A stretch of DNA of 64,000 bases from assembly GCF_025526975.1 (NCBI RefSeq), contig NW_026515675.1, positions 372,001 to 436,000 of the forward strand, given 5' to 3'. Positions 21,850-44,637 of this stretch are shown in pieces. The notes below the pieces were generated by a model. That model did no database searches. It was not told the DNA's origin and saw only the letters and a list, made by a program, of their open reading frames with translations. Source of the DNA: Fimicolochytrium jonesii (Eukaryota). Positions within the stretch are counted from its first letter, which is position 1, and each line of letters begins with the position of its first letter. The translations under genes and the position numbers were made by a program.

Positions 21850-22443
21850 TGTTATGGACGACGCGTCCATACCATGCGCTTACCTCATGACAGCATCCCA
21901 ACAGTCAGTCAATGTCAATTCCCTGTCAAAACCTGACATCTGCCAAACCTCGCAGCCGCACGCAGCCGCGCTACCCCACACCTGCCACTGCCTTCATTTC
22001 TCCACGCAGCCGCACGTAGCCACACCTCCCAACACTCGGCGCTTACAAACCCTTCTCCATACTTCCCCACGTACCCGCCCACAGCCTCAGCGTAGCCACC
22101 CCATCCCCAGTCTTCTGTTTCCATACTTCCCCACGTACCCGCCCACAGCCTCAGCGTAGCCACCCCATCCCCAGTCTTCTGTTTCTATGCTTCCCCACCC
22201 TTGGCGCTTCTCTTGGCTTCCCTCTCATTCCGTACCCTTCTGCTTCCCCACGCTTCCCCAGCCTTCCCAGAAAAACATAAATAGCCGCCTCCCCTGAGCT
22301 CCCCACTTCCTGATCCCCCAGCAGATCAACACCAGTTCTTCCTAGTCTTGTTCTAGTTCTTGTTTCGGTCTGAATACCATTACCTGTCAACAACCTGCAC
22401 CACAAGTTGCCTCTATTTCCATCGGCTCCGCCCTTTCATAACA
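21850..22443 (+). repeat. Lone LTR of the Tf1-like Gypsy family B, with an internal 64-bp tandem duplication
   Basis: TGTTATG...CATAACA termini; reverse complement of 42640-43169. Unit 22057-22120 is repeated at 22121-22184. The flanks CTTGA and GTCAC do not match each other. Confidence 0.9.
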
Positions 22444-22560
22444 GTCACGCTGGGCATCTTCGATGACCCCTCAGACATGCTCCCGAATCGCGTGGCGTAG
22501 ACGAGATGGATAGCTTCACGATTTTTTTTTCTACAGGTAGCTTTCATAACAGAAGCTGCA

Positions 22561-23133
22561 ATGGAGGATCAAAAGGATACGCCAGTACAGAAGAACACAA
22601 ATCGGCCTCCTACTCCAGTTCCTGACGCAGACGATGGGATAAACAAAGTGCTTGACGCAACCATCAAGGAACGCCAGAAGAAGCCTAGAACAGCAGCTCA
22701 ACTGGAGGCTTTGAAGCGAGCGCAACAGAAACGCGCGGAGAACCTGCGGAAGCTCACCAAGATGAAAAAAGAGCAGGAAACGGAGGAGGCTAAGCGTCGC
22801 GAGTTAGAGGAGAAGGAAGCTGAGAAGGAACGAGCAAGGAAGATCATCGAGAAGTACGAGCGAGAAAAGGAGAAAGCCAAATTGAAAGCCAAGGAAGAGA
22901 GGGCCGCTAGGAAGGCGGAGCGGCATCAAATGGCAGGTGTGGAGCCAAAACAAACAGCAGCCAAGAAGAAGCCAATCGCGGCGGCACAACCCCAACAACG
23001 CGCGGCGAGTCCAGAGCTGCCGGATGATCTGGCCTACAGTAGCGAGGATGAAGCCACGACCGTCTCGGTTCCAACAGCTCAATCAATTCCAGTTGACGAG
23101 TTCATGGGGATCTTCGGGATGCGCTGGAGGTAA
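22561..23133 (+). CDS. Viral hypothetical K/E-rich coiled-coil protein (190 aa)
   Basis: Clean ORF with KKPRTAAQLEALKRAQQKRAENL followed by a charged helix; lies directly upstream of the MCP. Confidence 0.7.
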   Translation: MEDQKDTPVQKNTNRPPTPVPDADDGINKVLDATIKERQKKPRTAAQLEALKRAQQKRAENLRKLTKMKKEQETEEAKRRELEEKEAEKERARKIIEKYEREKEKAKLKAKEERAARKAERHQMAGVEPKQTAAKKKPIAAAQPQQRAASPELPDDLAYSSEDEATTVSVPTAQSIPVDEFMGIFGMRWR

Positions 23134-23207
23134 GAGTTGCAACCGTCGACTGTTCTTTTTTTTTCTTAGACAGAAAGCAAGACAGCAGGACGGCGCTAAA
23201 CATCAGC

Positions 23208-24509
23208 ATGAGCACGAACCCGGTCGTCCCGGCAAACTGGCAATATGCGTCTCGCCAGTTCTCGATGCATAGCGACGCCCTGAGTGAAAACATCGCCATC
23301 TATCGTCCGATCAAAGAAAACTTCGATTCGCGAACGAGCGCCAACAGTTTCAAAATAGTGATTGACAGTAGCTCGTCGTTCCTGCGGCCCCAAAGGTCAT
23401 ACCTGAGTGGGACCGTCTCCCTTTTCAACGCCGATGGGATGGCTCTGAAGACGGCCACTGTGTCCGACATTGGCGCAATGGGGTGCTTCAGATCAGCTTC
23501 TATTCGAATTGGCGGGAAGCTTGTAGATGAGATCAACGATTTTCCTTTGTTCTTGACTGACCTGTACCAATTCGTTGACAAGGAAAGGCGAAAGTATCTA
23601 GCGTACCATGAAGGCGCTGGCAATGCAAACGTGTTCAAGAATGACAATGGCTCGTTTACTTTTAAGCTCCACCTTCAGTTTGGGAGCATGAGGCCCCTGA
23701 ACGGGCAACCGTTGCCACTGTGCGTCTTGCCTAACCAAGCTTGTGAGCTGTCTTTGACTCTCAACACCCCCCAAAGCGCGTTCACAGATGCTCCTGCGGG
23801 TTCCTACTTCATCGTGAGCAACCTCCGCTACGTGGCCCAGCTTGTCACCCCAAGCAGCGAATATCTGAGCACCCTCTGGCGTGGCATTCAATCGGGCAAA
23901 TATTTGGAGATGGACTTCGTGTCTGTTAACCAACTTTCGAGCGTTTGCTCGGGAGCAAGTCAGAACAACTTTATTCTCCCCTTGTCCAACTCCCGTGTCA
24001 TCGGTCTCACCCACCGTTGGCGGGATGACAACACTTTTGCGACGACTACGGGAGATAAGTCGCGGATCTACACCACAGCTAACTTGAAGTCGTGGAGATA
24101 CCAGATTGGCCAGTACCGATTGCCGCTCACTGAGGACTTCGACGTAAGCGATTCAGTCATGATTGGGGCCCTCTCACTCAGCGAGAACACGTCCTATTAC
24201 TCGGAGGACATTGATCTAGACAAGTTCTACACCGATCGATTTATCATGCGGTACAGCTGGCAGAGTGGGGACGAAGATACCGAGTCATCGCTTAACCTTG
24301 TCGGCTCTGATGGTAACCTCCGCGTAATCACTACGCACGCGTTACCGGCGCCAAGCACGGCCGTGTCGTTGCTCATCGGGAAAAACCTAAGAAGGGTGTC
24401 ATACCTCCCCAGCTTAGGCAATGGGTTCTGGCCCAACAGGCTGCAGCACGGCGCAAAGGGCGATGAAAGTCCTCACGACGCGAGAAGTTGTGGCCACGTT
24501 TATCGATAA
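23208..24509 (+). CDS. Probable double-jelly-roll major capsid protein (PLV-type), C-terminus probably truncated near 24374
   Basis: Beta-rich pattern FKIVI..SFLRPQRSYL...GAMGCFRSASIRIGGKLVDEI...LPL..ELSLTL...YFIVSNLRYVAQLV...WRYQIGQYRLP matches the order of motifs I recognise in PLV/Polinton MCPs. Not confirmed by HMM. Confidence 0.7.
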   Translation: MSTNPVVPANWQYASRQFSMHSDALSENIAIYRPIKENFDSRTSANSFKIVIDSSSSFLRPQRSYLSGTVSLFNADGMALKTATVSDIGAMGCFRSASIRIGGKLVDEINDFPLFLTDLYQFVDKERRKYLAYHEGAGNANVFKNDNGSFTFKLHLQFGSMRPLNGQPLPLCVLPNQACELSLTLNTPQSAFTDAPAGSYFIVSNLRYVAQLVTPSSEYLSTLWRGIQSGKYLEMDFVSVNQLSSVCSGASQNNFILPLSNSRVIGLTHRWRDDNTFATTTGDKSRIYTTANLKSWRYQIGQYRLPLTEDFDVSDSVMIGALSLSENTSYYSEDIDLDKFYTDRFIMRYSWQSGDEDTESSLNLVGSDGNLRVITTHALPAPSTAVSLLIGKNLRRVSYLPSLGNGFWPNRLQHGAKGDESPHDARSCGHVYR

Positions 24510-24585
24510 AATCAACCTCGTCGGCACCACCATGAAAGCATGGTGGCGCAAAGCGAGAAGCAAACAAGATTCATATTTCACATAG
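24463..24585 (+). CDS. Putative 40-aa viral micro-ORF
   Basis: MKVLTTREVVATFIDKINLVGTTMKAWWRKARSKQDSYFT*. Its ATG overlaps the TGA of an upstream basic frame (ATGA) and it ends 5 bp from the convergent gene. Confidence 0.4.
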   Translation: MKVLTTREVVATFIDKINLVGTTMKAWWRKARSKQDSYFT

Positions 24586-24590
24586 ACACA

Positions 24591-26144
24591 TTACTTACCT
24601 TTCCTCGTCGAGGTCTGTATGTATCCAGGGTCGTAACTCAACTTTTCTGGCGCTTGAGCTGTTCTCGCAGACCGCTTCGTTGCAGGGGCCTTGCCTTTCC
24701 CCTTGCCCTTTGTAGCTTTCCGTAGCGGCACCGCGGGAGTGTCTTCGTTCGCCTCCACCGTTGGCTCTGGCCCGAAAACTTGGGTCTGCGTGGGATTAGG
24801 CGACCATCTTAGTCCGCTGGGACCAGGAGCAGAAGGCTGCGGTTCGGGAGAGAACTGAGGCGCTACGTCGGGTGAGATAGACATAGGCGAAGCCGAGTTC
24901 CCGCTTGTATGGCCATAGCGTTCCGGCGACGAGTTTAGGGAGCTCTGGCCAAAGATAGAATCGAAGGAAGGAAGGGATGGGGTTGGGGAACCTCTCGGTT
25001 GCCACTGCGTTTGGATCGGAGGTGGTACTGGACGTGTAGAAGCGGAGGCTGGAGTGGCAGAAGGTGAGTATTGCGTTCCCATGTCGGCGACCTCTTGAGT
25101 CCTCTGTTTCTTTAGAGTCTCAATCAAGGTTCGCATAGCCGCTATCTCGGTGATAGCCACCGCAGAAATCGTCTCAACCTGCTTCACGAGACGCAACATC
25201 TCGTCCGGACTGATTGTCGCCGGAAGGCTGCTTTCTTGGAAGCCCATCGACACGAGGATGTTGCGGAATGTGCCCATCGTAGCCGCGGATATATTCCCGA
25301 GCTGAGCCTCTTGGCCGCGAAGCTGCTGCTGGAGGGTTTCGTTTCCAAAACGAAGCTGATCCATGAACGTCTGGAAGCGCCCCCCGTTTGCAAAGATGAG
25401 ATCCAGAGTCGTCCGATCAAGGTCAGGAAGATCGGTTGCTGATGCAACGGAGCGCATGTCGCGGACCGCGTGCTTTGGAGGAGGGAGAACCGGGCTCGTC
25501 TGTGTACCGAAGGTCACACTGGAGACCTTTCCGAGCCGTCCCACCTCGTCGGTCAAGCTTTCGCCGTCATTCCGTTTCGTGACGACTGGGTTGGAACCGA
25601 GGATAGGCTTTCCTGCGTTGCTGTTCGCGTTCTCGGGCAGATGCGCGTTGTCTCCACGCCGAACGTTGCTGGTCACATCCCCCATGAATTGGTTCTGTTG
25701 AGTTCGAACCCAGCCCGGCTGATGAAAGATGGTTGTGGAACCGTCAGCCCCCGTCTGGGATGCCACGGATCTAGGTAGGGCGATGGTTCTGCCTCGACGC
25801 GGGAAGAGATTATTGGCATCGAGCTCGTCAAAGTAGGCTTGCTTTGCTCGCTCCCGTTCCACCGCGTGAAGCGCATCAACGGCGTCCCGAGCGACTTTAC
25901 TCTGGTAAGGAGCTGCCCGAAGCGCGATTTGTTCTTTGATGGCCGGGCGCCTGTCAAAGACGCCTTTGGCAACTCCCTTTCCTGGGACATGGAATCCTGT
26001 GTGGAAGAGCCTGTTCTACGTCTCGCCAGGTCTACCGCGAATGTATGCGTATTGTCTCGCATGGATGTTGAGGATTGGCTGATTTGGGTAAGTGAAAGCG
26101 CCAGCGCTTGGCAGGCTAGCGTTCCTGTCGTCGTACTCAACCAT
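24591..26144 (-). pseudogene. Viral hypothetical protein (~517 aa) with one in-frame TAG
   Basis: ATG at 26144 (MVEYDDRN...) is in frame with the 423-aa ORF 24591-25862; the only interruption is TAG at 26018-26016. Central helical region, Pro/Ser-rich stretch and basic C-terminus. Confidence 0.65.
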
Positions 26145-26213
26145 CCCTGGTTTAATTTTTCTTCTATAACCTTGATCAAGAAGAAAAGAAAACGCAGGCC
26201 GCTTGCAGCACCG

Positions 26214-26510
26214 ATGGGGTTCTTTGACAAAGCACGAAGCAAAGCGAACACTTTCTTTTCGAAAGTCCCAGGTCACATTCAGAAGGCTCGGGGATTCCTC
26301 GATCAAGCGGTCTCGGGCGTCAGGACCGGCCACAAGCTCTTAACTCATGTCCGCCAGGGAATCGAAACCAATGATATCTTCGACGGCAAGGTGAAAGAAG
26401 CTTCACGTAAGGTAGGCTCCTTTGCTGATCTAGGCTTGAAAAAAGTTGACGCCTACCACAAAGGAGGCGATCAATTCCTCGGGCATCTGCAGAACATTCC
26501 TCTGGCCTGA
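26214..26510 (+). CDS. Small amphipathic viral protein (98 aa), candidate membrane-active virion protein
   Basis: MGFFDKARSKANTFFSKVPGHIQKARGFLDQAVSG...; Gly2 followed by basic amphipathic helices. Confidence 0.6.
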   Translation: MGFFDKARSKANTFFSKVPGHIQKARGFLDQAVSGVRTGHKLLTHVRQGIETNDIFDGKVKEASRKVGSFADLGLKKVDAYHKGGDQFLGHLQNIPLA

Positions 26511-26577
26511 GCAGATCTCATATCGCTCTTTTTTCCATCGCTTGTCATTAATCTAGGAATCAACCGCTTCCTTCGAG

Positions 26578-29500
26578 ATGAACATCAACTCTCGAACGAG
26601 CAGCGGCATAAGGACGCTGGATAGGCTGAACCTGGTAGCGCCGACCGTTAGCAGTTCAATCAAAGCTGCTGGCGACAATGTCTCCATGACGGGGTTCGAC
26701 TCAGCCGCGTTTCAGGCTCTATCAAACGAGAATGGCCCTCTTGAAGTGAATCGTGTAGAGGCCACCGAGCCGCTGGAATCGAAGACCGAAGCCGGCCTGG
26801 CAACCGTCAGCCTCGTTCATGATGAGACCCTCCAAGTCACTGATGGTAAACTTGGCACAACTCCCGTGCCAAAAGTTGAGGTCATCGCGCCTCTAGATGA
26901 GACGGACAACCGCCTTACACTGAAATGGACGGATCCCTTAACGGTCACGGATGAGGGCCTGACGCTCTCGTATGACCAAGATACCTTGAAGGTCAATGAT
27001 GGGGAGCTCTCCGTAGTCTTCCCTGCCCCGGAAACACTTCAGCCTCCTCTGATTCGAGACAGGGATGGCATCGAATTGCGGCACGATTCTACGCTCGTTG
27101 TAACGGCGAATGGAGACTTGTCCGTCCCAAAGGAACCGCTAAAGCAACCCTTAACGCGAGACGGGTCAGGCGTAGGGTTGAAATTGAATACGGATGACTT
27201 CGCCGTGGACGCCACTGGCGCGTTGGCCATCGTCCCAACAAACTATGAAGCTCCTCTGCATGAATCTGCCACGGCAGACAAGACCGTGTCCTTGCACACG
27301 GATGACAGTCCTCACGTCATCGGGGACGCTCTCAGCGTCGTACCTGAAGCATTATCAGCTCCCTTGACGTGGGAGGATGGGACACTTACGGTGCGTCTAG
27401 GGAAGGGTCTGAAGGTCAATGATGATGAAGAGCTGGAGACCAACATTGAGCAGGTCGTCGTTGGGCGCGGGGCCATCAGTAGTGATAAAGCTGGAAGCCT
27501 GGCGCTCGAAGATGTGCTGTCAATGGGCTACTCGTCCATCTCTGAGCTATTCAACGATGACGTTGATGTTGATGCCAGTGTTATTCGGCTCAAGACCTCC
27601 GATGATCTACAACAGACGGGAAACAAACTCGCTATACGATCCCAGGGACTAGGCAGAGTCCCGTTCTACAATGGGATCTCAGGGGTTCACCTATAATGAG
27701 ACTCTGAACGAGCTCCATGCGCCGCACATATACGTCAACTCTAACTTTTCACCTGCCGACACAGAAGTGCCCACAAAAGCGTATGTGGAACAGCTATACC
27801 AAAGTGATGCGGGCTCTCCCATCAACATCTCCGGGGTGAGCAACGGACGCAGAACCATCGACCTGCGAACAGACGCTAACCTAGCGGTTGAGAATCAAGT
27901 CCTCAGCGTCAATCCGTCTCCTTTGGTGGACAACAAAGGGGTCCGAGTGATTGACGGTAAGATCGGTATCGGACTCACGTTCCAGCCGGGAAACGGCGGT
28001 CTCAAGATAGAGAACCAGAACCAGGTCAAACTCGCACCTAATGTCAGCGGAGCCATCACTTTTGACGGCAATAACACGTTTTCGGAGAAGCTCACCGCCA
28101 GCCAGGGTGTAAAGAGGGTCGAGAATGATCTCCAGCTGGACCTACAAGCGGGAGACTCGACAGTCACTGTGAGCGGCAACACGGTGAAGGGAAACTACCA
28201 GGCTAACACCGGTGTCCGCCTCACAGGGAACACCATCTCAGGAGCGTACACAGCGGGAAACAACGTTAGCATAAGCGGCGCTACAATCAGCTGTACTTAC
28301 CAGCCCGAACCCGAAACTCCTACAGTCATCACTGGCGCACTTCCCATCATCGTCACAGGAGCTGACAAGGAATACAATATCTCTAAACAGCCGCTGGTAA
28401 TATCTGGAGGAGCAGGGATCGTGGTGGCGGGTTCTGAGGGTACCGGTTACGTAATCAGCAGCGTTCAGCCTTATAAGCAGAAGAAGCAGGACTCTGACCC
28501 GGAGGAGAACATGGAGGAGTCTGATCCGTTTGCAGAGAGTGACCCGTTGACCGCTTCTGGATCCTCTCCCGTTGTCAGCGTGACTGGCCCCCTCGGGTTT
28601 CTTCTCAGCAGTGGTGCGTCGCTCATAGGAGGGCCTTTGGCCAGTGGTGTGGCTGTTGCGCCTACCTCGGCCTTCGGCGCTCTTGGGGCTCTCGCGGGAG
28701 CTGTTGGGGGAACAACCATTGTAGGCGGCTTTGCATCTGTTTTTGGACGCGAACGAAAGAATAAGACAGACGCTAGCGGGAATCCGATCATAGACGCCAA
28801 CAACAACCCGGTGCTAGAAGACGGCTCGCAAGTTATCATTTCGATGCTGCCGAAACCCGACGACACCTCCTGTGATGTTACAAGGTTATTATTTGACACT
28901 CCCAGTTCTTGTTCTTACCGCTCAGTGCTCTTTGAGGTCCCTCAACAAGCCGTCAATCTCGACCTTCTCAAACAGTACCACATCGCGGCCATCAAGCCTC
29001 AGATAGATCTCAAGTTCGACAAAACGGGAAGTCTTCCCTATGCTCAGCTTAGCGGCGTACCGGACCTTTCCGTCTACGAGAAGAGGCTCACTTTCGCTCC
29101 TTCCCCTGTGCTGACGCGGGCAGCGGACACGGTGACATTCGACTCGACCAAGATCACCTCTCTCGGAACATTGGCCGGTCTGACACTTAGTGGAGCTTTA
29201 AGTGGGACGACAGCAACGTTCTCTGGGGCAATATCTTCACCTACCCTCAGCAACTATCTCCTCTCAGCCACAGCTGCCACCTCCTACCAACCGCTGAATG
29301 CTAAGCTTTCGACGATCGCTGCAAGTACAGCCGCGGCTTCGTACTTTTTGGTGGGAGACGGCGGCGCATATGCCTCGACCAGCCCTCTGAACGCCAGGTC
29401 AGCCCTTGGACTTGGCTCTTTGTCTTTCAAATCATCGCTGGACTTAGCAGCGGACGTCGGGACAAGTGTCTTGCCGGAGCCACGGATAGATGCATTGATA

Positions 29501-32500
29501 GCTAGGAAGACCTATGTGGATTCCCTGGTGGTTACCGCCGGCGCTGGCCTTACGAAGGCGGGCACAGCACTCAGTGTCAACGACGCGCAGCCTGGCATCA
29601 CCAGCCTTGGGACCCTGTCTAGTCTGACGACAAACGGTCTTTCCGTGCTCGGTAACAGTCGGACGCAGGGTTGCATTGTGCAGGGGTCCCAGCCGGCGCT
29701 GAATCTATCGAGTATGGCAACCGGAGGGGCTAGCTGGCAGTTATATTCGACCGTAGCCGGTGATTCACTGGGTCCCGGGTTCCTTTCGCTCTTGAATACA
29801 ACTGGAGGCGGGTCTACGCCGGTCCTCAACGTCAATGGGAGTGATCTGACACTCACTATCGCCAGGGCTCTAACAGTGAGTGGAGCGGTGACTATTCAGG
29901 CAACTCCAACAGCGGCTACTCACGCTGCATCAAAGGGATACGTTGACGGATTGATCAACACCACACAGACGGGAGCGCAACCGCTCAATGGCAAGCTTAG
30001 CACTATATCCAATGCAACTGCCGCTGCTAGCTACTTCCTTGTAGGAGATGGGACAAACTTCATCTCGACCAGTCCTGTCGCTTCTAGAAGTGCGCTCGGG
30101 CTTGGTTCTTTGGCCTTGAAGAGCATTGTCACGCTCACATCAGATGTGACTGGTATCTTGCCTCTTGCGAACCTAGATACACAGGTAAGTACCAAGGCAT
30201 ATGTTGATGCTCAGACCGTCACAGCTGGGAATAATCTGTCAAAGGCCGGGACTGTGATATCTCTCAATCCAGATGTACGGTTGAACAGTCTACGTTTAAC
30301 TTCCACCGACTTGAACTCGTCTGCGCTTCTTGTCAACGGTATCGGTCAGTTTGGACAGGTCCAAGCGGCTGACTTGATTGTCTCTGGAAACAGCTACCTG
30401 CAAGATGTGACGGTTAATGCTGGTTTGAACGTAATTGGTAGTTCCAGCCTAAGCGGACTTAATGTCACAAGTGTATTGAATGTCAGCAGGACAGCCACCG
30501 TGTCAACACCAACATCGGGGGCACATGCGGCGACGAAAGCCTACGTTGATGGTCTTTACACTGCTGGGACGGGCCTGACACGTGCTGGAAACGCCTTCAG
30601 CGTGAATGTGGCTCAGCCTCAGATCACATCAGTTGGCACATTATCGTCGCTGGCTGTAAGCGGAGCGGTGACTGTCGCGGGAACAGCCAATTCGGCCGTG
30701 CCGACAGCGGGGGCCATGCAAGTTGCTGGTGGGCTAGGGGTGGGGAAAAATCTAGTTGTTGCGGGGCAGAGCAACATCATTGGCTATGATTCAAACGTAG
30801 ATGCATATTCATCGTTCAATGTCCCTTTGACTGTCTGTACACAGGTGTCTAATGCAGCGGTGGGGGCTCCGACCCCTGTTCTGCAACTTGCTCAGGCTGG
30901 GACTCCCGCTTCCAAGGTCGCGGGATCTGCGACTTTCAACATGTCAAGGTATGCACTTGCCGGTGTACAGCCCAAAACACAATTGGATCTCTTCCTGAGC
31001 GATACCGACTGGGGGGTGGGAAAGACCGCGCTAACCCTGCGTGGCGACGGAACCGTTCTGATCCCTTCGAACGCTCTAAGTGTGTCTGTACCTGTCACGA
31101 GCAGCTACACAACAGGATACTTCTTGCAGCCGTCGCTCACCGCTGGGTCTCTCACTCAGTTCATCCATGGTGTCGGCATGAGTACATATAATTCAGCGTG
31201 CTTTGACTTCAACTACGCAGGAGCAGGTAACTCCGGTAACTATCTCGGACTGGGTCACTACGGCGCGAACGGATTACTCCGCGTCTATGGGAACGGGGTT
31301 GTCCAATGTACCTCTAGCGAGGACTCAAGTGGACCCGGTACTGGTGCTTTGCAAGTGGTAGGAGGGGTGGGTGTCTCCAAAAGTCTATTTGCTGGAGGAA
31401 CATCGGCGACGTCAAGTCATACATTGCAACTCAACTCCACAACATCCGATGTTCTCAAGATCCAGAGTCTTTCGGCTTTGGGGTTTTCCACTATTGGCTT
31501 CTTGAACAACACGGGAACGGTAGTGGGCGCTTTTGGTTATGCTGGAACCGGTACAAGTGCTCCCAATGCTGGAAACTTTTTCCTCTATTCCGGGTCAGCG
31601 GCAAACTTTGTGATCAATAGCAATGTTCCAAGTGTGCAGATTCTATCCACGGCAGACTCCTCATCTTCGACATCAGGTGCATTTCAAGTCAAAGGTGGAG
31701 CCGGGTTTGCAGGCAATGTTAACGTAGGAAAGGACTTGACCGTTGCGGGGACACTTTACAGCAATATCACCTCAGCAGGACCGATTGTTGCATCGCATCT
31801 TGGAGCACCTAACTTAGCAGCCGGAAGTTTCACGACTTTACAGCTCGGCACAGGGGCATCTACAAACAATATGGCAAGGTTGTACTTCAACTACGCCGGC
31901 CCAGGTCTTGCAGCAAACACGCTGGGGTTGGGGCTCTGGAACTCTCCACAAGGTCTTGTCGTTGATGGAACGGGGAAGGTTGCTATCCCAACCGGTAACT
32001 TGCAAGTTAACGGAAACCTCCCTATCATCAGCGGAAACGACACAATCGGACCACTGTCAATCGACCCCAATTTCACATCCAATAACTATGTTAGGGTCTG
32101 GGACGATTTACGTGTTGTTGGAGACTTCTCTGTATACAACTCCGCTGAAGCCGTTGCTTGGCTCAAAGTTGCGTCGAGCGATGGTAGCGTTGTACTGAAA
32201 GGGTCCTCGGATACCTCGGCAGTTGGGTCGGGCGCTTTGCAGGTATCCGGGGGCGCATCTGTGGCAAAATCTCTGTATGTTGGGCCAAATCTCAATGTAG
32301 CCGGCGACCTCCTCACTCCCGCCTTGACGTCTACAAGCACTCTAGTTGTGCATCCCACGACACCGGCAACAAACTACTCCTGGAACGGATACAGCGTGAC
32401 TTACTCCTCGGAGTATACCTACAACAACTCAAACGGAATAGATGGGCTTACGGGACATGGTTGTGACTGTTACATGTATGCATCCTACGCATCGAGATTG

Positions 32501-33406
32501 CGGTGGGCAACAAGTAGCACTTCAACAGGCACACTCAGCCTCGATTCAACAGCGCAAAGTCTGCATTTCTCCCTCCTCCGGCTCCCGACCGCAATTGCCA
32601 TGGCTCAAGTCAAACTAACTGCGTATCTGCCTGATGGCGTGTTGATGCCAACCACGTTCACTGTAGTGGCGCGGACAAGCGAATCGTCGGTCAAGACCAT
32701 CGCCACGTTCTCCAACATCAGCGCGTCTAGTTGGTTGATGGACGGGAATTCGTTTTCGTTCTCAAATACCACTGCCTATCCCGTGTGGGGGATTTCGTGG
32801 CAGTACGCAAATCAGACAACAGCAGGAGGGGTCGCCATACGAGGGATACAGTGGAATCAATTGATTCCAAAGGCCGCCTTGGTGAATGCTCAGGCGGATA
32901 CGCTGAATGCGTCTACTGTGACTGTATCAGGCACGACCACCACTAATAGCCTGGTTGCGAACTCAGCCCTCTGTAAAGGTGACTTGACTTGTAGCACGAA
33001 CATGTATTGCAACACCCTTGTGCAGAGCTTTGTCGCCATCAAAGACTGGTTGGCGGATGTCCTTGTGCCTAATGCCAATGGTTACACCAACACTAGCCCC
33101 AGTCCTATCGGGTGGATCCCAAAAATGTCGGCATGCGTTGCTCACTGCATGTTCTCCGCCGCTCCAAATGTTATGAACGCTCGAATCACATGTGGTGTAC
33201 AAATCCTCGATGGAGCTACGGTTGTGGCAGCGAAGAGTTTCTCAATCTATGGGACCATAAATAATTACAACGTTCAGACCCCCTTCTGCTTCCAGCTGCC
33301 CATTCTCTTCAACAGCACCTCGACCGGGCTCACCGTAAAGCTCAGCATTCCGACCTCGATGACGTTCAGTAATTTGTACGTTTTGTTCTACACACAGGTC
33401 TTCTAG
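26578..33406 (+). CDS. Giant fibre/spike protein (~2270 aa), split by a 1-nt frameshift at the G run 27682-27685
   Basis: The 372-aa and 1911-aa ORFs join as YNGISG|FTYNETLNEL if one G is removed. Contains adenovirus-shaft-like repeats (APL..LTL...L.V....L.V), T/SKAYVD-type repeats, four GA(L/M/F)QVxGG repeats and a discoidin-like C-terminal module. Confidence 0.78.
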
Positions 33407-33851
33407 TCGCTAAATGGTACACGTGTCGCGGCGAAGTCTACTGATAAGTCGCCGATAGTTTCGTGTGAGGTGCGTGTGTGTGTGCCGTGGGATAGGGCCG
33501 TGATCATTAGCTGTCGTGGCGCGGTCGTACCATAGCGGCGGCGTTTGGATGATGGAGCCGACGGTTTGGGTTCCAGCCCCGGGTTTCGGGATGTAGACGC
33601 GGCGGTCCCGTAGGGTTGTGCAGCAGGTTTGGGTGCGCTTTTATCGATAACGGTGCATCGCCAAAACGTCTTCGCACCAGGGGCGTAACTGGGGCGTACT
33701 AGATACATGCAGAATGTAATAGATACGTTTGACGTAACAGATATGCTACAGGGGTGTAACTGGGACGTAATGATTATATAGTACATAATAAGCGTAATAC
33801 AGCACAGTTACATAAACAATACGCCACAGTTACATAACCAGAAAATACCAG

Positions 33852-33895
33852 TGTCGTAGTGCAGGTGTAATTTAAATTACACCTGCACTACGACA
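33852..33895. repeat. Perfect 44-bp palindrome (candidate hairpin telomere or resolution site)
   Basis: TGTCGTAGTGCAGGTGTAATTT|AAATTACACCTGCACTACGACA, 22-bp arms with no spacer. The palindrome is certain; the function is inferred. Confidence 0.95.
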
Positions 33896-34653
33896 ATCGG
33901 GTACGTGGAAAGAAGTTCAAGTCTTTGTTGGACATCAAAGATGCATATCACCGCCTCTTGGTTTGCAAAGCTGATAGAGACAAAACAGCGTTTCAAACGC
34001 GGTTTGGTCATTTTGAGTACTTGGTTATGCCGTTTGGATTCCCAAATGCACTGGCAACATTTCACCGGTTAACCAATAAGATGTTGGGCAAGATGTATGA
34101 TGCGTATGTCATATCTTACCTGGACGATATCTTGATCTTCTCGGAAACAGCCAAGGAGCATATCGCTCATGCCGAGAGTGTTTTGGCTGTTCTTGCCGAG
34201 CATAAACTTTATGTCAAGCCATGCAAGTGCAAATGGATGCAGAAAGAGCTTGAATTCTGCGGCCACATCCTGGGGGAGGATACAATGGCCATTACTCCCT
34301 TGAATTTAAAGTTTGAAAGTTTGCACGTCCTACCAAACAGAAAGAGGTTGACAAAGTACCTGAGTCAATACGTCGATCGTTATGCATACATTGCGTATCC
34401 ATTGACAGAGCTACAGTTGGGCAATAGGCCATGGCACTGGGGCGATGTTGAGGAAACAGCTTTTGTTAAGCTGAAGGAAGCTATTATTACAGCTCCTACA
34501 CTCGTGTCTTACGACCCAAAGCGAGATTTATACATGTTTACGGATGCATCAGGTTTTTGCAATAGGAGGATGGCTCGCGCAGCCGGCGGATCCAGTGGAG
34601 CATTACCCATCACCGTTGCCTACCTCTGTGAAGGGATTTAAAAATCTGCCACC
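33896..34653 (+). pseudogene. Gypsy A reverse transcriptase (C-terminal part) and start of RNase H
   Basis: [34 protein letters not shown]. Confidence 0.88.
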
Positions 34654-36855
34654 CATTTGTTCAGCCCACAATAGTCGATACACATACGGAGACTGCCATC
34701 CTTTTTCTTAGCAAATAACACTGCAGCGCCCCAGGAGCTCTGCGAGTGCTGAATCCAACCGCGCTCAAGCATGCGGGTAACCTTCTCATTCAGCTCTTTG
34801 AGTTGCGCTCATATGCCATAAAGGATTAAAGCTCGATATGGAAGTTATCCTCTCCTCTATCAGGTGGCAACTCTGCGGGCTCGACCAACAAACTATCGAC
34901 ATACTTCTCTAACGTTGGATATAGAAGGTGATCCGATGGCATGCCCAAATCAACCTTCTGTCTTGTAAGTTCGATCATTTGAACCTCTGGCTCTGGTTCG
35001 GCGCGATCGCGCTCATTTGCAGGGACATAAGCTGCTGACGCATTCACTGCAGCTTCTATGTCCATAGCGTATGCCATGTAACACTTCCCATACACCTTCT
35101 TTTGAGATAAGCGAGTGAACTTCTTATATGTTACAACTCCTTCACTTGAGTCTTCTTGTTCAGGCATCGCTGCCTTGAAACGTTTGGACTTCTTTCTGAT
35201 GTCAAAGGACCGCAGATCGGCTGCATTACAGGACAATTTGGATTCCCACTTGCTAGTTACCTGTCTGGCAACCAGGGTGTGTTCAACTTCATCTGCACGG
35301 AAGCATAAAACCGGAATCTCAGCCTCTATGTGCTCGAAACGAACGTCATCAAGCATATAGATCCATGGTAATCCGAGGATAACGTCCACCCGCAGAGGAG
35401 CAACCAAAAATGGAAGCTTTCCTCGTGAATAGTGCCGTGGATCCCCCCATAACTGAAAATCGCCACAAAATAGCTTGTTGGCGTTGAATGTATGGCCGTC
35501 GTCACCCCAGGTGACATGAATGGGTGTTTTGGGGTTATAGGTTTGAAAACCGTGTTTTGACACCCATCCCTGTCATATCATAAGTGTTGTGCGTCCTGTA
35601 TCGATCAGAATGTGACAAAACTTGCCATTCAACTTGCCATGAACCAGAAATGCACATCGAGCGATCAACGCATCGGGTTGCAGTTGCAGTGCTTCAGGCC
35701 TCGGAAAAACAGTTTCAGTCTCGTCTGGCCGGCACAGACGCGCCCCCAAAGCAGACGTATTGCTACAATCAACCAGTATACCAACCGCAGACTCAGGGTG
35801 TATAGCCTCAAGTTCCTCTTCAATGGACACCATTGCACAATGAGACAAATAAGCAGTGTCTTTATTACACGTCTCTACTGAAAACCCTTTTTCTGACCAG
35901 CATCCCAACGCGGCTTATCCTTAGCCTTGTCGGATTTCTTGTCCTTCTTCTTTTTCGGACAATCTCGCGCACGGTGCCCCATCTCACCACAATTGGAACA
36001 CTTCATGTTTGAGAGGTCTGGGCGTGCGTAAGGCTTAGCAGCTTCCGCCTTCTTAGCTTTCCCCCCCTTCTTGCCCGCAGTACCCACGGCAGAAGAGAAG
36101 TTAGCACGTTTAGGCGCACTACTACCACAAGCAACTGCTTGTTAGCATCGGTCCCCTTATCGGCGAGACGACGCACAGCAAAAGAACTGAGCGCACGATC
36201 CATCAAACGAATCAACGGATATGTGAGCAAAGGGTGTTGCTCCCTATAATCGACCATCGTATGCAACAACGACTGGGCAACTTGTAGCCGACGGTATTGG
36301 TCTTGTCGCGAGTAAGAGCGCGAAGAAACAGGTTATTCAAATCGTCAGGAGTGATAACCTCCAGGTTGCGCTGTGCTTCGGCAACGATACGTTTGAACTC
36401 TGTCGCATAAGAATCCATCGACTTATGGAAAGTCATACGATGCAGAGCTTTGAGCGCGTTGGTTTTCGCGGTTGTAGGATAAAAGGCTAACTTGAAAGCC
36501 GTTTCGAAATCCTCTTTCCGCATGTCAAGCCTGCATGCGGTATCGAACCAGGCACGTGCGTCGCCTTCGAGCGAGCCAGATACCTTCTGCATGTACTTAA
36601 AGTCCCAATCGGATGGCCAAAAGTAAGCATGACATCTGTATGCTTCTGCAAAAACGACGAGAGCTGCCTCGCGCTTTTTGCCGTTGAAAGGATGCTGCGA
36701 GATCCATGTCCCATGGTGCCTACGCTGCTTGATGTAGAACGCTCCACAGATCCATCCTGCAGCAGGGCATCATGTTGCATAGCAGAATTACGCTCCAACG
36801 TAGCGTGCAAGCGATTTTCACCCCAAGGAACATCAGGCTCAACAGGACCAGGCTA
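34654..36855 (-). pseudogene. Inverted Gypsy gag-protease-RT N-terminal segment
   Basis: LEGDARAWF gag, CSNCGEMGHRARDC knuckle, ILIDTG protease, DVILGLPW and [13 protein letters not shown], all on the minus strand. Confidence 0.82.
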
Positions 36856-37285
36856 GAGCATTACCCATCACCGTTGCCTACCTCAGTAAAGGGATTTAAG
36901 AATCTGCCACCATTAAAGCCGATAGCTTTCTTTAGACGGAAGATGCAGTCTGCTGAAACACGTTACCCCGTGCATGAACAGGAGCTATTAGCTCTGGTTA
37001 AGATATGCAAGGCGAATAGGCATTACTTGCAGGATTGGATAAATGATCGCCCGTTTCGAGCGTTCACCGATCACGCTAGTTTGGTCAGGCTGCAGACACA
37101 GCCCTTCCTTAGCCATCGCCAAGCACGGTGGGTTGAATTCCTGCAACAGTTCAAATTTGATATTGAATATCAACCTGGTCGTTGGAACACCGTCCCTGAT
37201 GTGTTGAGTCGTAATCCTTATTACGCCCCATGCTGCGCCGAGTGTAACAAGCGAGCTGAGATTGCTGCAGCCATGGGAATGTCCG
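36856..37285 (+). pseudogene. Gypsy A RNase H, interrupted by the family B element
   Basis: AETRYPVHEQELLA, FTDHASL, RQARWVEFLQQF, DVLSR. Confidence 0.88.
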
Positions 37286-37290: not shown

Positions 37291-37820
37291 TGTTATGAAT
37301 GGGCGGAGCCGATGGAAATAGAGGCGACTTGTGGTGCAGGTTGTTGACAGGTAATGGTATTCAGTCCGAAACAAGAACTAGAACAAGACTAGGAAGAACT
37401 GGGGTTGATCTGCTGGGGGATCAGGAAGTGGGGAGCTCAGGGGAGGCGGCTATTTATGTTTTCCTGGGAAGGCTGGGGAAGCGTGGGGAAGCAGAAGGGT
37501 ACGGAATGAGAGGGAAGCCAAGAGAAGCGCCAAGGGTGGGGAAGCATAGAAACAGAAGACTGGGGATGGGGTGGCTACGCTGAGGCTGTGGGCGGGTACG
37601 TGGGGAAGTATGGAGAAGGGTTTGTGAGCGCCGAGTGTTGGGAGGTGTGGCTACGTGCGGCTGCGTGGAGAAATGAAGGCAGTGGCAGGTGTGGGGTAGC
37701 GCGGCTGCGTGCGGCTGCGAGGTTTGGCAGATGTCAGGTTTTGACAGGGAATTGACATTGACTGACTGTTGGGATGCTGTCATGAGGTAAGCGCATGGTA
37801 TGGACGCGTCGTCCATAACA
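37291..37820 (-). repeat. Gypsy B 3' LTR
   Basis: TGTTATG...CATAACA; about 7 substitutions versus the 5' LTR by eye. Confidence 0.93.
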
Positions 37821-40800
37821 TCACCCCCTCCTTTAGCCACGGCGTCCGGATGTTGTTTTGATGTTGGCAGGCTTTGGTCGGGGTTTGTCGGGGTACTTTT
37901 GGTGGAACTGGGCAACAAGCTCTTGACATCGGGCAAGGTGTTCCACTGGCTCCCATGTGTTCTCCAAGCTTGGCCAACCCTGCCACTTGATGAGGTACTG
38001 AAGGTGCGTGCGTCGAATACGGGAGTCAAGAATGTCTTCCACAATCCATTCCTCCTGTCCTTCGACTTCTTCTGGTGGGGTGGGTTCTGGCTCAGTTCGC
38101 TCCGGAATGGTGAAACGTGGTTCAAGAAGGGAGACATGGAAGACGTTGTGAATTTTGTAGGATGGGGGAAGCTTGAGGCGATATGTGACCGAGTTGATCT
38201 TCTCCGTGATTGTGAAGGGGCCAATCTTACGGTGATCAAGTTTCTGGGAAGGTCGGAGAGTCTTGAGATTCCGCTGTAAGAGCCAGACACTGTCCCCGGG
38301 TTTCATGTCTGGGCCAGGTGCCCTCTTAGCATCGGCAAAGCGCTTCATGCGTCCTTGGGCCTCCTTGAGCTCAGTGGCAAGCTGTTCATGGATTTCCTTG
38401 AGATGGTTGGCACGAGCTTCGGCTGCAGGATTAAGGGATTCGGTTGTGGTGGCGGAAGCCAGACTAAATCGAGGATGGAACCCATAGTTGGCGTAGAAGG
38501 GGGTTGTCTGGGTGGCGGAGTGGATGGTGTTATTGTAAGAGAACTCAGCAGAAGACAAGAGTTCCTTCCAGTTATCTTGTTGATAGTTGCAAAAGCAGCG
38601 AAGGTATTGCTCAAGAATCTGATTGGTCCGCTCGGTTTGTCCATCGCTCTGGGGATGGAACGCCGATGAGAGGTTGACCTTGGTTCCCAGGAGAGCGAAG
38701 AGACGTTTCCAGAAGTGGGAGTTGAACTGTGGGCCACGGTCAGATACAATATCGTCGGGGAGTCCATGGAGCCGGATGACATGGTGCCAGATCAGATCTG
38801 CAGTTGACTCAGCGGTGGCAGTTTTCCTGCACGGTACAAAGTGCGCCATCTTGGTGAACCGGCAGATGACAACGAGCACAGAATCAACCCCATCACTGGC
38901 GGGTAGATCCGTGATGAAGTCCATGGAAATTGACCCCCAGGGGCGGTCAGGGACCTGCAGGGGTTGGAGGAGACCGTAGGGCTTGTGTCTGCTGGTCTTG
39001 GCTTGAGCACATACGTCGCAGGACCTGATGTAGGACTTGACAAAACGCCACTGGTTAGGCAGGCCACCAGTAGTTGCGTGAGATGAGCTCCAGGGTCTTT
39101 GACATGCCGTAGTGTCCTGCCAAACGCGTGTCATGCATGTCCCGGCAGATCTCAGCACGGAGCTTGTTGGTGGGGACGTAGACAAGGTTGTCGTACAGCA
39201 GAACCCCATTTTCCTCGGAGAATCGCTTTATCCGTTCTTGGTCTTCTTGAGATTGCTGGGCAATGGGGGCCCTAAGCTGTCGCCGGATGGTTTGCGCAAA
39301 CACATCGGATGCCAGGGCAGCTTTGATTTGGTCAAGGAGCGAGGAGTCCAGTGGGGTCAGATAAGTGGCGGCCAGGCGGAGATGGTCAGGGGTGAGGATC
39401 GTGGTTTCCTGGGAGCGGAATGCTTCTTCCCCCTCCCTTAGCTCGTATTCAGAGCGACGAGAGAGGGCGTCAGCTTGGTGTTGCTGGGTACCAGGGCGGT
39501 ATGTGATGAGAAAGTCGAAATCAGCAAAGAAGATTGACCAGCGGGATTGGCGGCGGTTGAGGGTACGGGTAGTCATGAAGTACTGGAGGTTCTTGTGGTC
39601 ACAGTAAAGGATGACCTTGTGGCGGGCACCAATGAGGTGGTGTGGCCATTGAGCAAATGAGTCTTGGATAGCCAGGAGTTCCTTGTCGTAGATCTCATAG
39701 TTGATTTCCTCAGGAGTAAATTTGCGGGAGTGAAAGGCCACGGGGTGGAGTTGATCTGTGTCATCGGGTTGAAGGAGGACGGCGCCAAGGGCAAAGTCGG
39801 AGGCATCGGATTCGACAATGAAGGGCTTGTCAGGGTCGGGGTGAGTCAGGATAGGTGCGGAGGTGAAGGCTTTCTTGAGGGTTTCAAAAGCTAGGTGTGC
39901 AGCGTGGGTCCATTTGAATGGCAAGTCTTTGCGAGTGAGCGTGGTCAGGGGTGCAACGATCGCAGAGTACCCTTTGATGAATCGCCGGTAGAAGTTGGCA
40001 AAACCAAGGAAGCGCTGGATGCCTTTGACATTCGTCGGGGGTTCCCATTCGGTAATGGCAGCCGTCTTCTTTGGGTCCATGGAAATGCCTTGCTGGGAGA
40101 TGATAAACCCCAGGAACTCAACAGAGTCACGGTTGAATTCGCATTTTTCCGGTTTCGCATACAGCCCGTGCTGGCGGAGTCGTGAGAGCACCTCTCGGAC
40201 GTGGTTGGGGTGGTCTTCTGGTTTTTTGAGAAGATCAGAATGTCGTCAAGGTAGACCACAACAAAAATGTCGAGAATGTCACGGAATATGTCGTTCATGA
40301 GGTGTTGGAATACTCCAGGGGCATTGGTGAGCCCAAACGGCATGACATCATACTCGAATAGGCCGTAGCGACATCGGAACGCTGTCTTCCATTCATCCCC
40401 TGGCCGGATCCGAAGAAGGTTGTAGGCTCCCCGGAGGTCAATCTTGGTGAGCCGGCGTGCCCCTCGAAGACGATCCATGATGCTGTTAATCAAGGGCAAG
40501 GGATAGCGATTCTTGATGGTGATATTGTTGAGTCCACGATAGTCGACGCACAGACAGAGGGAACCGTCCTTTTTCTTGACAAAGAGGACTGGGGCACCGG
40601 CGGGAGACTTGGAGTGCTTGAAGAACCCCTTAGCTAGGTTCTCTTCAAGGTAGTCACAGAGTGCCTGCATTTCAGGCTCGCTGAGACTATAGATCGGGCC
40701 GAACGGTGGCTGTTTGCCCTCTTCTAAGTCGATGGGACAGTCGTAGGGTCGGTGCTCTGGGAGGGTATCCGCGTTCTTCTTGGCGAAGACGTCCGCAAAA

Positions 40801-42639
40801 TCTTGGTATTCTTCAGGAATGATGGCCTTCGGATCTTTTGGAGGAGTGGTCGCCAGGGCTTGGGAATCTGACTTGGTCGGATTGGCGTAGGCAATGAATG
40901 CCTGGTCATGCCTTGCCGCCACACGGAAAGCTGGGGCGCTGATAAACGATACGTGGATCGGTGTGGGTGCTGGGTCCAGTGTGTTGGGTGTCTGGGCTAG
41001 TGAGACTGAAATCTCGTCTTGATGGATACGGATCAGAGGTTCAGGGGTTTTTGAGGGTTTCGGGCTAGGTTCTGTTGGCAGGGCATCCCAGGAGGCGTAT
41101 TGTCCAAAACCGCAATGGCAGCGGACGCAAAGAGTGCGAGTCTTCCAGTGTAGCTCCACATCATGGAGCTCAAACCAGGGAAGCCCCAGGATGATTGGCG
41201 CATGCGGGGAACATGTCACATGGAATACCACCTCCTCAAAATGGTCGTTGACCCACATACCCAAAGGTTGGGTGTGATGGGTAATGGAGCCCGCATGGCT
41301 GGGACGTCCGTCAACCAGTGCAAGCGCAATGGGTCCTCCTTCTTGACAAGTGGGATGCGGTGCTTGCGGGCATAACTTTTGTCGATGAAGCACGACATCG
41401 CACCGGTGTCGAGTAGTGCTGAAAGCTGAACTGGAGCTCGCTGGGCCGATATCTGCAGGGTAACAGGGTACTCGAATGGTGAGGATGGGCCCAAAGTCCG
41501 CATGGGTGAGGGTATCTCAGATAGGAGATTGACATTGTTGGTGGTCAGGAGAAGGGTGTTGCTGGAGATGCCAGGATCGGAGCAAGGTTTTGTGGCTTCT
41601 CCCTTGGCAGTACTTGCGTGGTGAGAAGGCCCAGGACAGGTATTGCCCAGCTGCTCGGCCTTTACTGCAGCTGGACTTGGGCAAAATCCTGGATGGGTGC
41701 AGGTTCCTTAACCGCGACATTCGCCGTGCGTATCTTGTTCGGGCAGAGTTTGGCTATGTGGCCAGGTTTACCACAATAGAGGCAAAGTTTGTTTGTGATG
41801 CGGTGTTGGCGCTCTAGCGGTGTGAGGGGTCCTCACGGACGAGCAGCGTCAATGATCATAGGGTCGTCTGGGCGGTTGTCGGGGCCCATGAGGGTGGGGC
41901 TAGTGGTAACTGGCACATAGGGCTGTCGGTTCCTGCTTCGCTCTAGACGGCGCTCAAACAATCGGTTGTCACATTGGATGGCCTGTTCCATCACGGTGTC
42001 GATTGAGGCGGTAGGGGGCATCGTGAGCATTAAGTCCTTGACGTCTTCTTTGAGGCCGCGACGGAAGGTGGCAATCAATGCCTGGTCATTCCACGACACA
42101 TCGCATTGCAGCTGTCGGAATTCAGCTACATACTCTGTTGCTGCACGGGTTTGTCGAAGGTTCTGGAGCTTGTTTTCGGATGTGCGGATCCTGTCGCTGT
42201 CTCCAGAGACTGCTTGCATTTGCTGGATGAAATCATCCAGGTTCGTAAGGGAATGATGGTCTTGTTCGACAAGGGGCGCCAGCCAGGCCTGGGCGGTGCC
42301 AGTGAGGTAGGTGCCAATAGTTCGTATCTTGGTCTGATCGTTGGGGTAGCGCCTGGGTTGGAGGGCGAACATGAGCCGGATCTGGTTGAGGAACCCACAG
42401 AACTTGCTTCGGGTGCCATCAAATTTGTCTGGGAGACTGATTTTGGGTTCGGGGGCGTGGGTGGCAGGGGCAGTGGTCTGGGTTTGCGCTAGTTCGGCTT
42501 GTAGGGTGGTATTCTGTGCTCGAAGTTCGTCAATCGCATTGCACATGGCTTGCCAGGCTTCGGCCGTGAGGGGAAGGGCGTCGGACATGGTGATTTGGCG
42601 TGGAGGTACAGCGGCGGGGGGTTGTTGAGCAGATCAAAC

Positions 42640-43169
42640 TGTTATGAATGGGCGGAGCCGATGGAAATAGAGGCGACTTGTGGTGCAGGTTGTTGACAGG
42701 TAATGGTATTCAGACCGAAACAAGAACTAGAACAAGACTAGGAAGAACTGGTGTTGATCTGCTGGGGGATCAGGAAGTGGGGAGCTCAGGGGAGGCGGCT
42801 ATTTATGTTTTTCTGGGAAGGCCGGGGAAGCGTGGGGAAGCAGAAGGGTACGGAATGAGAGGGAAGCCAAGAGAAGCGCCAAGGGTGGGGAAGCATAGAA
42901 ACAGAAGACTGGGGATGGGGTGGCTACGCTGAGGCTGTGGGCGGGTACATGGGGAAGTATGGAGAAGGGTTTGTAAGCGCCGAGTGTTGGGAGGTGTGGC
43001 TACGTGCGGCTGCGTGGAGAAATGAAGGCAGTGGCAGGTGTGGGGTAGCGCGGCTGCGTGCGGCTGCAAGGTTTGGCAGATGTCAGGTTTTGACAGGGAA
43101 TTGACATTGACTGACTGTTGGGATGCTGTCATGAGGTAAGCGCATGGTATGGACGCGTCGTCCATAACA
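42640..43169 (-). repeat. Gypsy B 5' LTR
   Basis: TGTTATG...CATAACA; lies upstream of the gag ATG at 42588. Confidence 0.93.
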
Positions 43170-43174
43170 TCAAG

Positions 43175-44637
43175 TATATTCTTTTGGGGAATGTTACGCT
43201 TGAGGATTGGATATAAACCTTGGAGGCTGATGAGTACTTTGCTTCTCAGAAGAATGCGTTGTCACAGCCAAAGGAACAGCAGTCTACATTCGATCGACGT
43301 TTTTCAATCGATGAGCATGATTGTTTACTGTATCACGATAAGTTCTACGTGCCAGCTGCTTTACGAGGAACTGTATTGCAAGCTTGCCGACAGGTAAGCG
43401 TGTTGGCTTACTTCGTTTGCTCCCAATTCCCGACCGATGCTGGCACATGATTGGTATGGATCCTGTCTTGATGCCAATAACACGGTCGTGGGGGGGGGGA
43501 AGGTGCATAGTGATGCGTTCTACAACAGTACTATTGTCTTCATCAACTATCTGTCATCGCACGCGTACTTTATACCTGCAACACCCCCAATAACTGCTGA
43601 GGAGTTGGCCCAGCTTTACTTCCGTCAAGCATAGCGCCATACAGGTACTGTAGCTGTGATTGTCGGAGATCAAGATCCACGCTACCTGGCAGAGTTCTGG
43701 AAGGTGTTTCAATTGTTGTTGGGCTCTAAGCAGAGCTTGAGCACGGCACGACACCAACAGACGGACGGAAAGGGCGAACGGTGTCTCCCTATCTTGAAGA
43801 GGAAGCTTAAACCATACCTTGATGTAACGGGAGACGATTGGGTTGACAAACTGCCGTTGTTGGAGTTTGCCTACAACCGTATGCAGAACAGCACTGGATA
43901 CTGCCCTTTCGAGGTTGATCTGGGTAGAATTCCGCAGGCACCGATGCATTGGCAAGTTGATGCAAAGGTGTTGCAACGTATGGACGATATGTAGATCCCA
44001 TTCTTGCATAAGTCACGACGTGAGCTCATTGTACAGATGGAGAAGCGTGCTGAGGCATACTGATCCATTGAACTCATAGTGCATCAGAGACTGCAGGAAG
44101 CCCAGGACAAACAAGCGAAGTATCACGATCGTGAACGTCACAGCGACGGGATAACAATCCCTGCTTTCAACAAGAAGCCGCTCAAGTTCAGACAGAGCTG
44201 GCTTGGACCCTTCATCGTGAAGAAGGAAGGACCACACCCGGAAACATACGAGTTAGAGCTGCCAGCTTCAATGGGCGCTTTATACCCGGTCTTCCAGACG
44301 GATATCTTGAAGCCATGGCACGAGGCGACTCTAGATCCAATGCGCATCGACAATGTAGATGACTCTAACCCAATGCCCATCCAAGTCAAAGGCGAGAAAG
44401 AATACTACTAGGTTGCTCCATGGAAAACCTCAGTATCTCGTTCAGTGGGTTGGTTGGCCACCTGAGCAGACTACATGGGAAACGCACGAGCGAGTGAAAG
44501 ACTGCGCTGCATTGGACGACTTCATCTTGGTCCTTGGTGAAGTAGAATCCATTACAATTAAGCGAAAGTTGAAGCGCTCCAAGGGAACTGAGGCTGTGCA
44601 ATGCAAGAGTGCACAGTTGGCTGAAAGCCATGAATGA
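43175..44637 (+). pseudogene. Degenerate Gypsy A integrase and chromodomain (right copy)
   Basis: Continues the RNase H at 36856-37285 across the B insertion; same motifs as 20382-21849. Confidence 0.85.

What the first reader, a model, noticed from the sequence alone, without database searches (positions are those of the whole stretch)
33852..33895. Perfect 44-bp palindrome at the virus end: candidate opened hairpin telomere or protelomerase-type site
Seen: a spacerless palindrome with 22-bp arms and an AATTT|AAATT centre. It sits exactly where viral sequence stops and a broken Gypsy RT begins (33896). Known: linear replicons with covalently closed ends (N15-like phages, Borrelia, poxviruses) give such palindromes at replicated telomere junctions or when a hairpin is nicked open. 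Polintons instead have protein-primed TIR ends and integrase-made TSDs. Inference: this virus may have hairpin ends and was captured by end-joining at a chromosome break, which would be an unusual replication strategy for a PLV-like element.
Basis: partly seen in the sequence, partly recalled or inferred. Interest (0 to 1): 0.88.

Follow-up and report, generated by a model that had tools for sequence, protein, structure and literature searches.

The report
Palindromic tip of integrated chytrid virus
A perfect 44-letter DNA palindrome marks the exact spot where a capsid-encoding virus buried in a chytrid fungus genome meets a broken jumping gene; it is likely the virus's own fold-back end, likely pasted in by an integrase, a kind of end already described in 2026 for related viruses of a protist.

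Summary
The palindrome is real: 22-nt arms, no spacer, at 33852-33895; 0 of 200 simulated windows exceeded 11-nt arms. It caps an 11.4-kb remnant of a Polinton-like virus (double jelly-roll capsid gene, two fibre-like genes) in a chytrid genome. Its outer edge lies within 2 nt of where a Gypsy reverse transcriptase starts in mid-gene. It is not RT-derived. It shares short words with the repeat-rich 200 nt on its viral side. It ends TGT...ACA, the pattern of Gypsy-integrase substrates. Best reading (0.7): the virus's own terminal palindrome, joined to the host by a retroviral-type integrase. A 2026 preprint reports 52-nt palindromes next to target-site duplications in Halocafeteria virophages and one PLV subtype, and proposes hairpin priming. 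Limits: the left half of the virus, with any integrase or replicase gene, is absent from the window, apparently lost by recombination between LTRs. No second copy, relative's end or read set could be fetched. The target-site duplication, the gene content and the hairpin function are therefore untested here.

The parts
33852..33895 (.). Perfect 44-bp palindrome, outermost part of the virus remnant; ends TGTCG...CGACA
   Evidence: folds as a 20-bp stem with a 4-nt loop, z -11.6, 0 of 200 shuffles as stable
33678..33839 (.). Subterminal short direct and inverted repeats (21-22-nt units with a GTAAC/GTTAC core); candidate protein-binding sites (inferred)
   Evidence: D1, D2, I2, I4-I6; fold of 33670-33845 z -3.3, 1 of 200 shuffles as stable
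33407..33895 (.). Segment between the fibre stop codon and the junction; putative right terminal inverted repeat (partner not in the window)
   Evidence: no second copy in the window; the only ORF, 127 aa on the - strand, has no Pfam match
27671..33406 (+). 1911-aa fibre-like protein, last viral gene before the end
   Evidence: three further related genes carry the same species label as the identical record P0191
26578..27696 (+). 372-aa protein with adenovirus fibre shaft repeats
   Evidence: Pfam PF06536 E 2.6e-13, PF00608 E 1.2e-8; same order capsid-fibre-fibre in Powellomyces gene model P0053
24591..25685 (-). 364-aa viral ORF of unknown function
   Evidence: no Pfam match
23208..24509 (+). 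Double jelly-roll major capsid protein gene; about 10 residues missing near the C-terminus and the frame runs on, unlike relatives
22561..23133 (+). 190-aa charged ORF upstream of the capsid gene
   Evidence: resembles by eye the N-terminal part of gene model P0005; no tblastn hit with low-complexity filter on
21850..22443 (+). Gypsy LTR that truncates the virus on the left; its two flanks do not match (CTTGA versus GTCAC), so likely a recombinant of two LTR copies
33895..34653 (+). Gypsy RT (C-terminal part) to RNase H, starting in mid-gene at the palindrome edge: the host target
34654..36855 (-). Inverted gag-protease-RT(N) piece of a Gypsy; stops 16 codons short of the junction, so it gives no left flank for a duplication test

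Best explanation
The palindrome lies at the exact edge of a Polinton-like virus remnant and is likely the virus's own terminal sequence, likely joined to a host Gypsy RT gene by a retroviral-type integrase at its ...ACA 3' end, and predicted to fold back as a hairpin that would prime replication of the free linear genome. Shown: palindrome, position, capsid gene, TGT...ACA ends, repeats next to it. Inferred: the integrase (its gene is not in the window), a short target-site duplication whose left copy went with the lost half, and a matching palindrome at the other end. Least certain (about even odds if the rest holds): fold-back priming of the 3' end, followed by a nick and re-copying of the tip as in rolling-hairpin replication, with the subterminal repeats binding a replication protein.
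For: Outer edge within 1-2 nt of the RT break. The arm read in the RT frame matches at most 1 of 8 upstream RT residues in all 23 relatives (0 in 16, 1 in 7; 2 rows out of register). 4-mer sharing with the 200 nt on the viral side is 44 against a mean of 23.8; 1 of 317 background windows reaches it, and the RT side gives 13. Ends fit TGTNR, the terminus of Gypsy LTRs and Ginger transposons (PMC2836005 passages); YNACA occurs at 0.9% of window positions. The capsid model matches PBCV-1 Vp54, E 9e-10. Halocafeteria virophage subtypes 1, 2, 5, 6 and PLV subtype 4 have palindromes within TIRs next to TSDs, linked to RVE integrases and non-pPolB replicases (preprint section 7). Loss of the left half is accounted for by a recombinant LTR.
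Against: No second end, no TSD and no integrase or replicase gene in the window. No relative's DNA end was obtained. Word sharing is significant only at k=4: 17, 58 and 75 of 317 windows reach it at k=5, 6, 7. YNACA occurs 7 times in the last 245 nt (2.9%), so the terminal match is weaker locally. Polinton ends are recalled as AG...CT, not TG...CA (recalled, no call). The locus is heavily rearranged, so a secondary breakpoint is possible. The preprint itself offers accidental annealing at breaks as an alternative and has no experiment on function.
Confidence: 0.7

Rival explanations
1. One reading: the virus has covalently closed hairpin telomeres made by a protelomerase or resolvase; one was nicked open, or a replicated telomere junction broke, and the end was captured by end-joining at a chromosome break.
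For: The geometry fits a hairpin opened 22 nt from its tip: a perfect spacerless palindrome with an AT-rich centre, symmetry stopping abruptly. N15 telRL also has a perfect 22-bp core inside a 56-bp palindrome. No TSD can be shown here.
Against: telRL is internal and 164 bp from its telomerase gene; no TelN match in the window (left half missing). End-joining does not predict a TGTNR-type end. Published palindromic PLV and virophage ends have TSDs. A search for protelomerase + polinton + eukaryot found 0 papers.
Confidence: 0.1
2. A one-off fold-back: during the rearrangements of this transposon cluster a broken viral end snapped back, copied 22 nt of itself and was then joined to a Gypsy fragment.
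For: The neighbourhood is scrambled: an inverted Gypsy piece, two RNase H copies overlapping by 56 bp, a 5-kb inverted duplication. The palindrome has no mismatch. The preprint names this alternative.
Against: It does not predict the TGT...ACA end. It would not recur, whereas such ends occur in all complete members of five Halocafeteria subtypes. Unchecked AI notes report 44- and 50-nt palindromes at other chytrid virus junctions (leads only).
Confidence: 0.11
3. The 33407-33895 segment is the end of a different element (an LTR or a Ginger-like miniature transposon) that sits between virus and RT.
For: TGT...ACA ends are typical of these elements. 33512-33529 is 72% like the palindrome start and could be a partner terminus (D3 and I3).
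Against: No matching flanks for the 44-mer (CCAG versus ATCG) or for 33512-33895 (TAGC versus ATCG). No polypurine tract before 33424 or 33512. No other copy in a window full of LTRs.
Confidence: 0.05
4. Assembly or library fold-back artefact.
For: Repeat-rich locus; reads could not be examined.
Against: The palindrome is internal in a 952-kb contig, only 44 bp long, and lies on a biological boundary with an integrase-type end. Fold-back artefacts are usually much longer (own knowledge).
Confidence: 0.04

Closest known systems
Terminal palindromes of endogenous virophages (subtypes 1, 2, 5, 6) and PLV subtype 4 of Halocafeteria seosinensis (bioRxiv 10.64898/2026.07.28.741278; abstract, passages, sections 7 and 10 read; supplements closed)
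   Same: Short palindrome (52 nt in subtype 5, 44 nt here) forming the last bases of an integrated double jelly-roll virus; hairpin priming proposed.
   Different: Host is a chytrid fungus, not a bicosoecid protist. TSD, TIR partner, RVE integrase and non-pPolB replicase are reported there and untestable here. Sequence similarity of the ends was not compared.
Polinton-like viruses of chytrid genomes (PMC7805220 passages and supplement rows; bioRxiv 10.64898/2026.06.19.733378 passages)
   Same: Integrated capsid-encoding elements in chytrid genomes are known.
   Different: Neither main text contains 'palindrom' or 'hairpin'. The Spizellomyces capsid named in the 2021 supplement is SPPG_00925; the relatives found here are SPPG_02195, 07203 and 08453, so probably another lineage.
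N15 telRL / protelomerase TelN
   Same: Spacerless palindrome with a perfect core that can become a hairpin end.
   Different: 56 bp with 2 mismatched pairs, internal in the virion genome, next to the telomerase gene, resolved at the centre (cut at 24802/3 in the record). Here the element stops at the outer edge.
Parvovirus/AAV rolling-hairpin termini (PMC11575299, search listing only; mechanism otherwise recalled)
   Same: Terminal palindrome next to short repeats; model for how it could work.
   Different: ssDNA viruses with an HUH Rep nickase; none is found in the retained genes, and a perfect palindrome cannot show flip/flop forms.
Gypsy LTR and Ginger transposon termini (PMC2836005 passages)
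   Same: TGTNR terminal pattern.
   Different: Those ends are not described as palindromes in the passages seen, and Ginger has no capsid.

Membership tests
Polinton-like virus | Double jelly-roll major capsid protein | tested here: met
   Model pLDDT 66; 144 Foldseek matches at E<=0.001, top PBCV-1 Vp54 E 9e-10, also mavirus and PRD1; TM-scores only 0.28-0.34
Polinton-like virus | Packaging ATPase and minor capsid gene | tested here: inconclusive
   No Pfam match among retained ORFs; left half absent
Polinton-like virus | Terminal inverted repeats at both ends | not testable with these tools
PLV/virophage with palindromic ends (Halocafeteria type) | Palindrome with arms of 20 nt or more at the very end | tested here: met
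   the preprint screened with minimum arm 20
PLV/virophage with palindromic ends (Halocafeteria type) | Target-site duplication next to the palindrome | tested here: inconclusive
   The upstream RT piece in the window stops 16 codons short of the junction
PLV/virophage with palindromic ends (Halocafeteria type) | RVE integrase and non-pPolB replication gene | not testable with these tools
   Not in the retained 11.4 kb; no relative's locus obtained; only the TGTNR-type end points to such an integrase
Protelomerase system (N15 type) | Protelomerase gene near the site | tested here: not met
   No TelN tblastn hit at E<=1 in the window; a gene in the lost half is not excluded
Protelomerase system (N15 type) | Uncut site flanked by replicon DNA on both sides, or end at the symmetry centre | tested here: not met
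   Virus on one side only; junction at the outer edge
Protelomerase system (N15 type) | Covalently closed ends on free DNA | not testable with these tools
   needs reads or gels of extrachromosomal DNA
LTR or Ginger-like miniature element | Matching flanks (TSD); polypurine tract before a 3' LTR | tested here: not met
Known RNA family (miRNA-like hairpin) | Rfam gathering score | tested here: not met
   0 of 9 matches reach it; best 28 bits against 54-90

The most novel reading that the evidence does not exclude
Chytrid Polinton-like viruses keep covalently closed hairpin ends and replicate without a protein primer; a viral enzyme, possibly the integrase itself, opens the hairpin at the ACA 22 nt from the tip and joins that 3' end to host DNA. 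The 44-bp palindrome would then be the fixed footprint of coupled hairpin opening and integration, a chemistry for which I found no description in the papers seen, in a capsid-encoding dsDNA virus of a fungus.
Probability: 0.2. Interest if true: 0.75.

Novelty: new member of a known kind. Interest (0 to 1): 0.4.

Why it matters
How most Polinton-like viruses copy their ends is unknown (preprint abstract). A palindromic tip in a fungal element, far from the protist where it was first reported, suggests a widespread end type and a hairpin-primed alternative to protein priming. A chytrid genome with several related elements offers a direct test. The feature itself is already in print for another host, and this copy is a truncated remnant, so it adds range, not mechanism.

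Tried and rejected
Exact DNA scans for palindrome parts found 0 matches in viral contigs and metagenomes; distant blastn against phages found none. Capsid-based locus searches gave no usable locus (pattern hits but no relative; 1 relative, 0 loci; 1 weak hit, E 8e-4 over 57 residues in a bacterial MAG, treated as chance and not examined). The Atlas gave no answer. Fused gene models of relatives showed no integrase or replicase domain (0 of 9; 0 of 3 fibre relatives). Rejected: RT origin of the arm; the inverted Gypsy piece as the missing left flank; the lost half lying at 52300-58300 (ORFs listed, 5 of them scanned, none viral; no second capsid or fibre hit); an Rfam family. The review PMC11426020 is not held. 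PMC13533422 passages mention polinton-like integrases in giant viruses of zoosporic fungi but no palindromes. PMC8547959 passages give TSD lengths and contain no 'palindrom' or 'hairpin'. Supplements of the Halocafeteria preprint are closed and may hold end sequences that bear on the TG...CA point.

Full report
Observation. Window 33852-33895 is a perfect palindrome with 22-nt arms and no spacer. The next best in the 64 kb has 11-nt arms, and none of 200 Markov simulations exceeded 11. Pairing beyond the arms falls to 23 of 98, so this is not part of a longer inverted duplication.

The element. Left of the palindrome lies an 11.4-kb viral remnant (22444-33895). The ORF at 23208 has 14 close relatives at 46-69% identity. 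All 9 named ones come from the chytrid genera Gaertneriomyces, Geranomyces, Phlyctochytrium and Powellomyces. Its predicted fold (pLDDT 66) matches double jelly-roll capsids, led by PBCV-1 Vp54 at E 9e-10, with low TM-scores. Two fibre-like genes follow, in the same order as in a Powellomyces gene model. A record identical to the last fibre gene over the region searched is labelled Fimicolochytrium jonesii. Three further related genes (54-57% identity) carry the same label, so related elements probably exist elsewhere in this genome. After the fibre stop come 489 bp with no other copy in the window. Their last 220 bp hold short direct and inverted repeats (fold z -3.3) and then the palindrome.

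The junction. A Gypsy RT starts in mid-gene at 33895. Read in the RT frame, the right arm matches at most 1 of 8 upstream RT residues in all 23 relatives, 2 of them out of register, so the palindrome is not host RT. It shares more 4-mers with the 200 nt on its viral side than 316 of 317 background windows, and few with the RT side. At k=5 to 7 the excess is not significant. Its ends read TGTCG...CGACA, fitting the TGTNR pattern of Gypsy LTRs and Ginger transposons (PMC2836005 passages). That pattern occurs at 0.9% of window positions but at 2.9% within the last 245 nt, so it is moderate evidence.

Why the other end is missing. The virus is cut on the left by a Gypsy LTR (21850-22443). The intact element of that family (37291-43169) has the duplication TCAAG on both sides. 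The LTR beside the virus carries that element's outer flank on one side and a different 5-mer on the other, and 17394-22445 is a 95-99% inverted copy of 42638-47623. Recombination between LTR copies therefore likely removed the left half, with any integrase, replicase and left flank (inference). An inverted 5' Gypsy piece at 34654-36855 stops 16 codons short of the junction and cannot supply a duplication test.

What is known. [quoted passage not shown] They go with RVE integrases and non-pPolB replicases. The authors propose hairpin priming, name accidental annealing as an alternative, and have no experiment. It was the only paper found for halocafeteria + palindrom + virophage and the top hit of a broader search. 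Two papers that mention chytrid PLVs hold no 'palindrom' or 'hairpin' in their main text, and protelomerase + polinton + eukaryot found none. I found no report of such ends in fungi in searches; most subscription papers are not covered. Earlier AI notes of this scan describe 44- and 50-nt palindromes at chytrid virus junctions. They led me to the preprint; I could not see or check their sequences and do not count them as support.

Mechanism. Most likely (0.7) the palindrome is the virus's own tip and an RVE-type integrase joined its ACA 3' end to the RT gene. On free linear DNA the 3' end would fold back to prime synthesis, and a nick with re-copying would restore the tip. That step is borrowed from parvovirus replication and is untested. 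The protelomerase or end-joining reading (0.1) fits the geometry but not the anatomy: N15 telRL is internal, beside its enzyme gene and cut at the centre, and TelN has no match in the window. A one-off fold-back during rearrangement (0.11), a foreign element end (0.05) and an artefact (0.04) remain.

Limits. No genome, no reads and no relative's end were available. Recurrence, target-site duplication and gene content are untested, and the best reading leans on analogy with the preprint.

Verdict. Real; a new fungal member of a recently described kind of viral end; interest 0.4.

Noticed in passing
window 34598-34653 and 36856-36911: Two RNase H pieces overlap by 56 bp with 3 differences, all at third codon positions, around an inverted gag-protease-RT piece: probably a chimera of two Gypsy copies.
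   Followed up: partly
window 17394-22445 and 42638-47623: 5-kb inverted duplication of nested Copia and Gypsy DNA, 95-99% identical; its end coincides with the left cut of the virus.
   Followed up: partly
window 37291-43169: Full-length chromodomain Gypsy with 98.7% identical LTRs and a TCAAG duplication.
   Followed up: partly
window 7219-12780: Single 1853-aa ORF for a Dicer (helicase, dimerisation, PAZ, two RNase III) about 10 kb from the virus remnant.
   Followed up: no
window 2052-2083: 22-bp palindrome (11-nt arms) followed by a further copy of its TACTGTAC unit, about 360 bp upstream of a TPR gene; within the range of simulations (7 of 200 reach 11).
   Followed up: no
window 23208-24509: Capsid gene lacks about 10 conserved residues near its end and runs on past the relatives' stop: this copy is probably decaying.
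   Followed up: no
proteins P0001-P0007, P0045, P0047, P0051: The chytrid-linked capsids form one long-branched clade with two subgroups in a FastTree of full-length hits, apart from the other relatives; no support values examined.
   Followed up: partly
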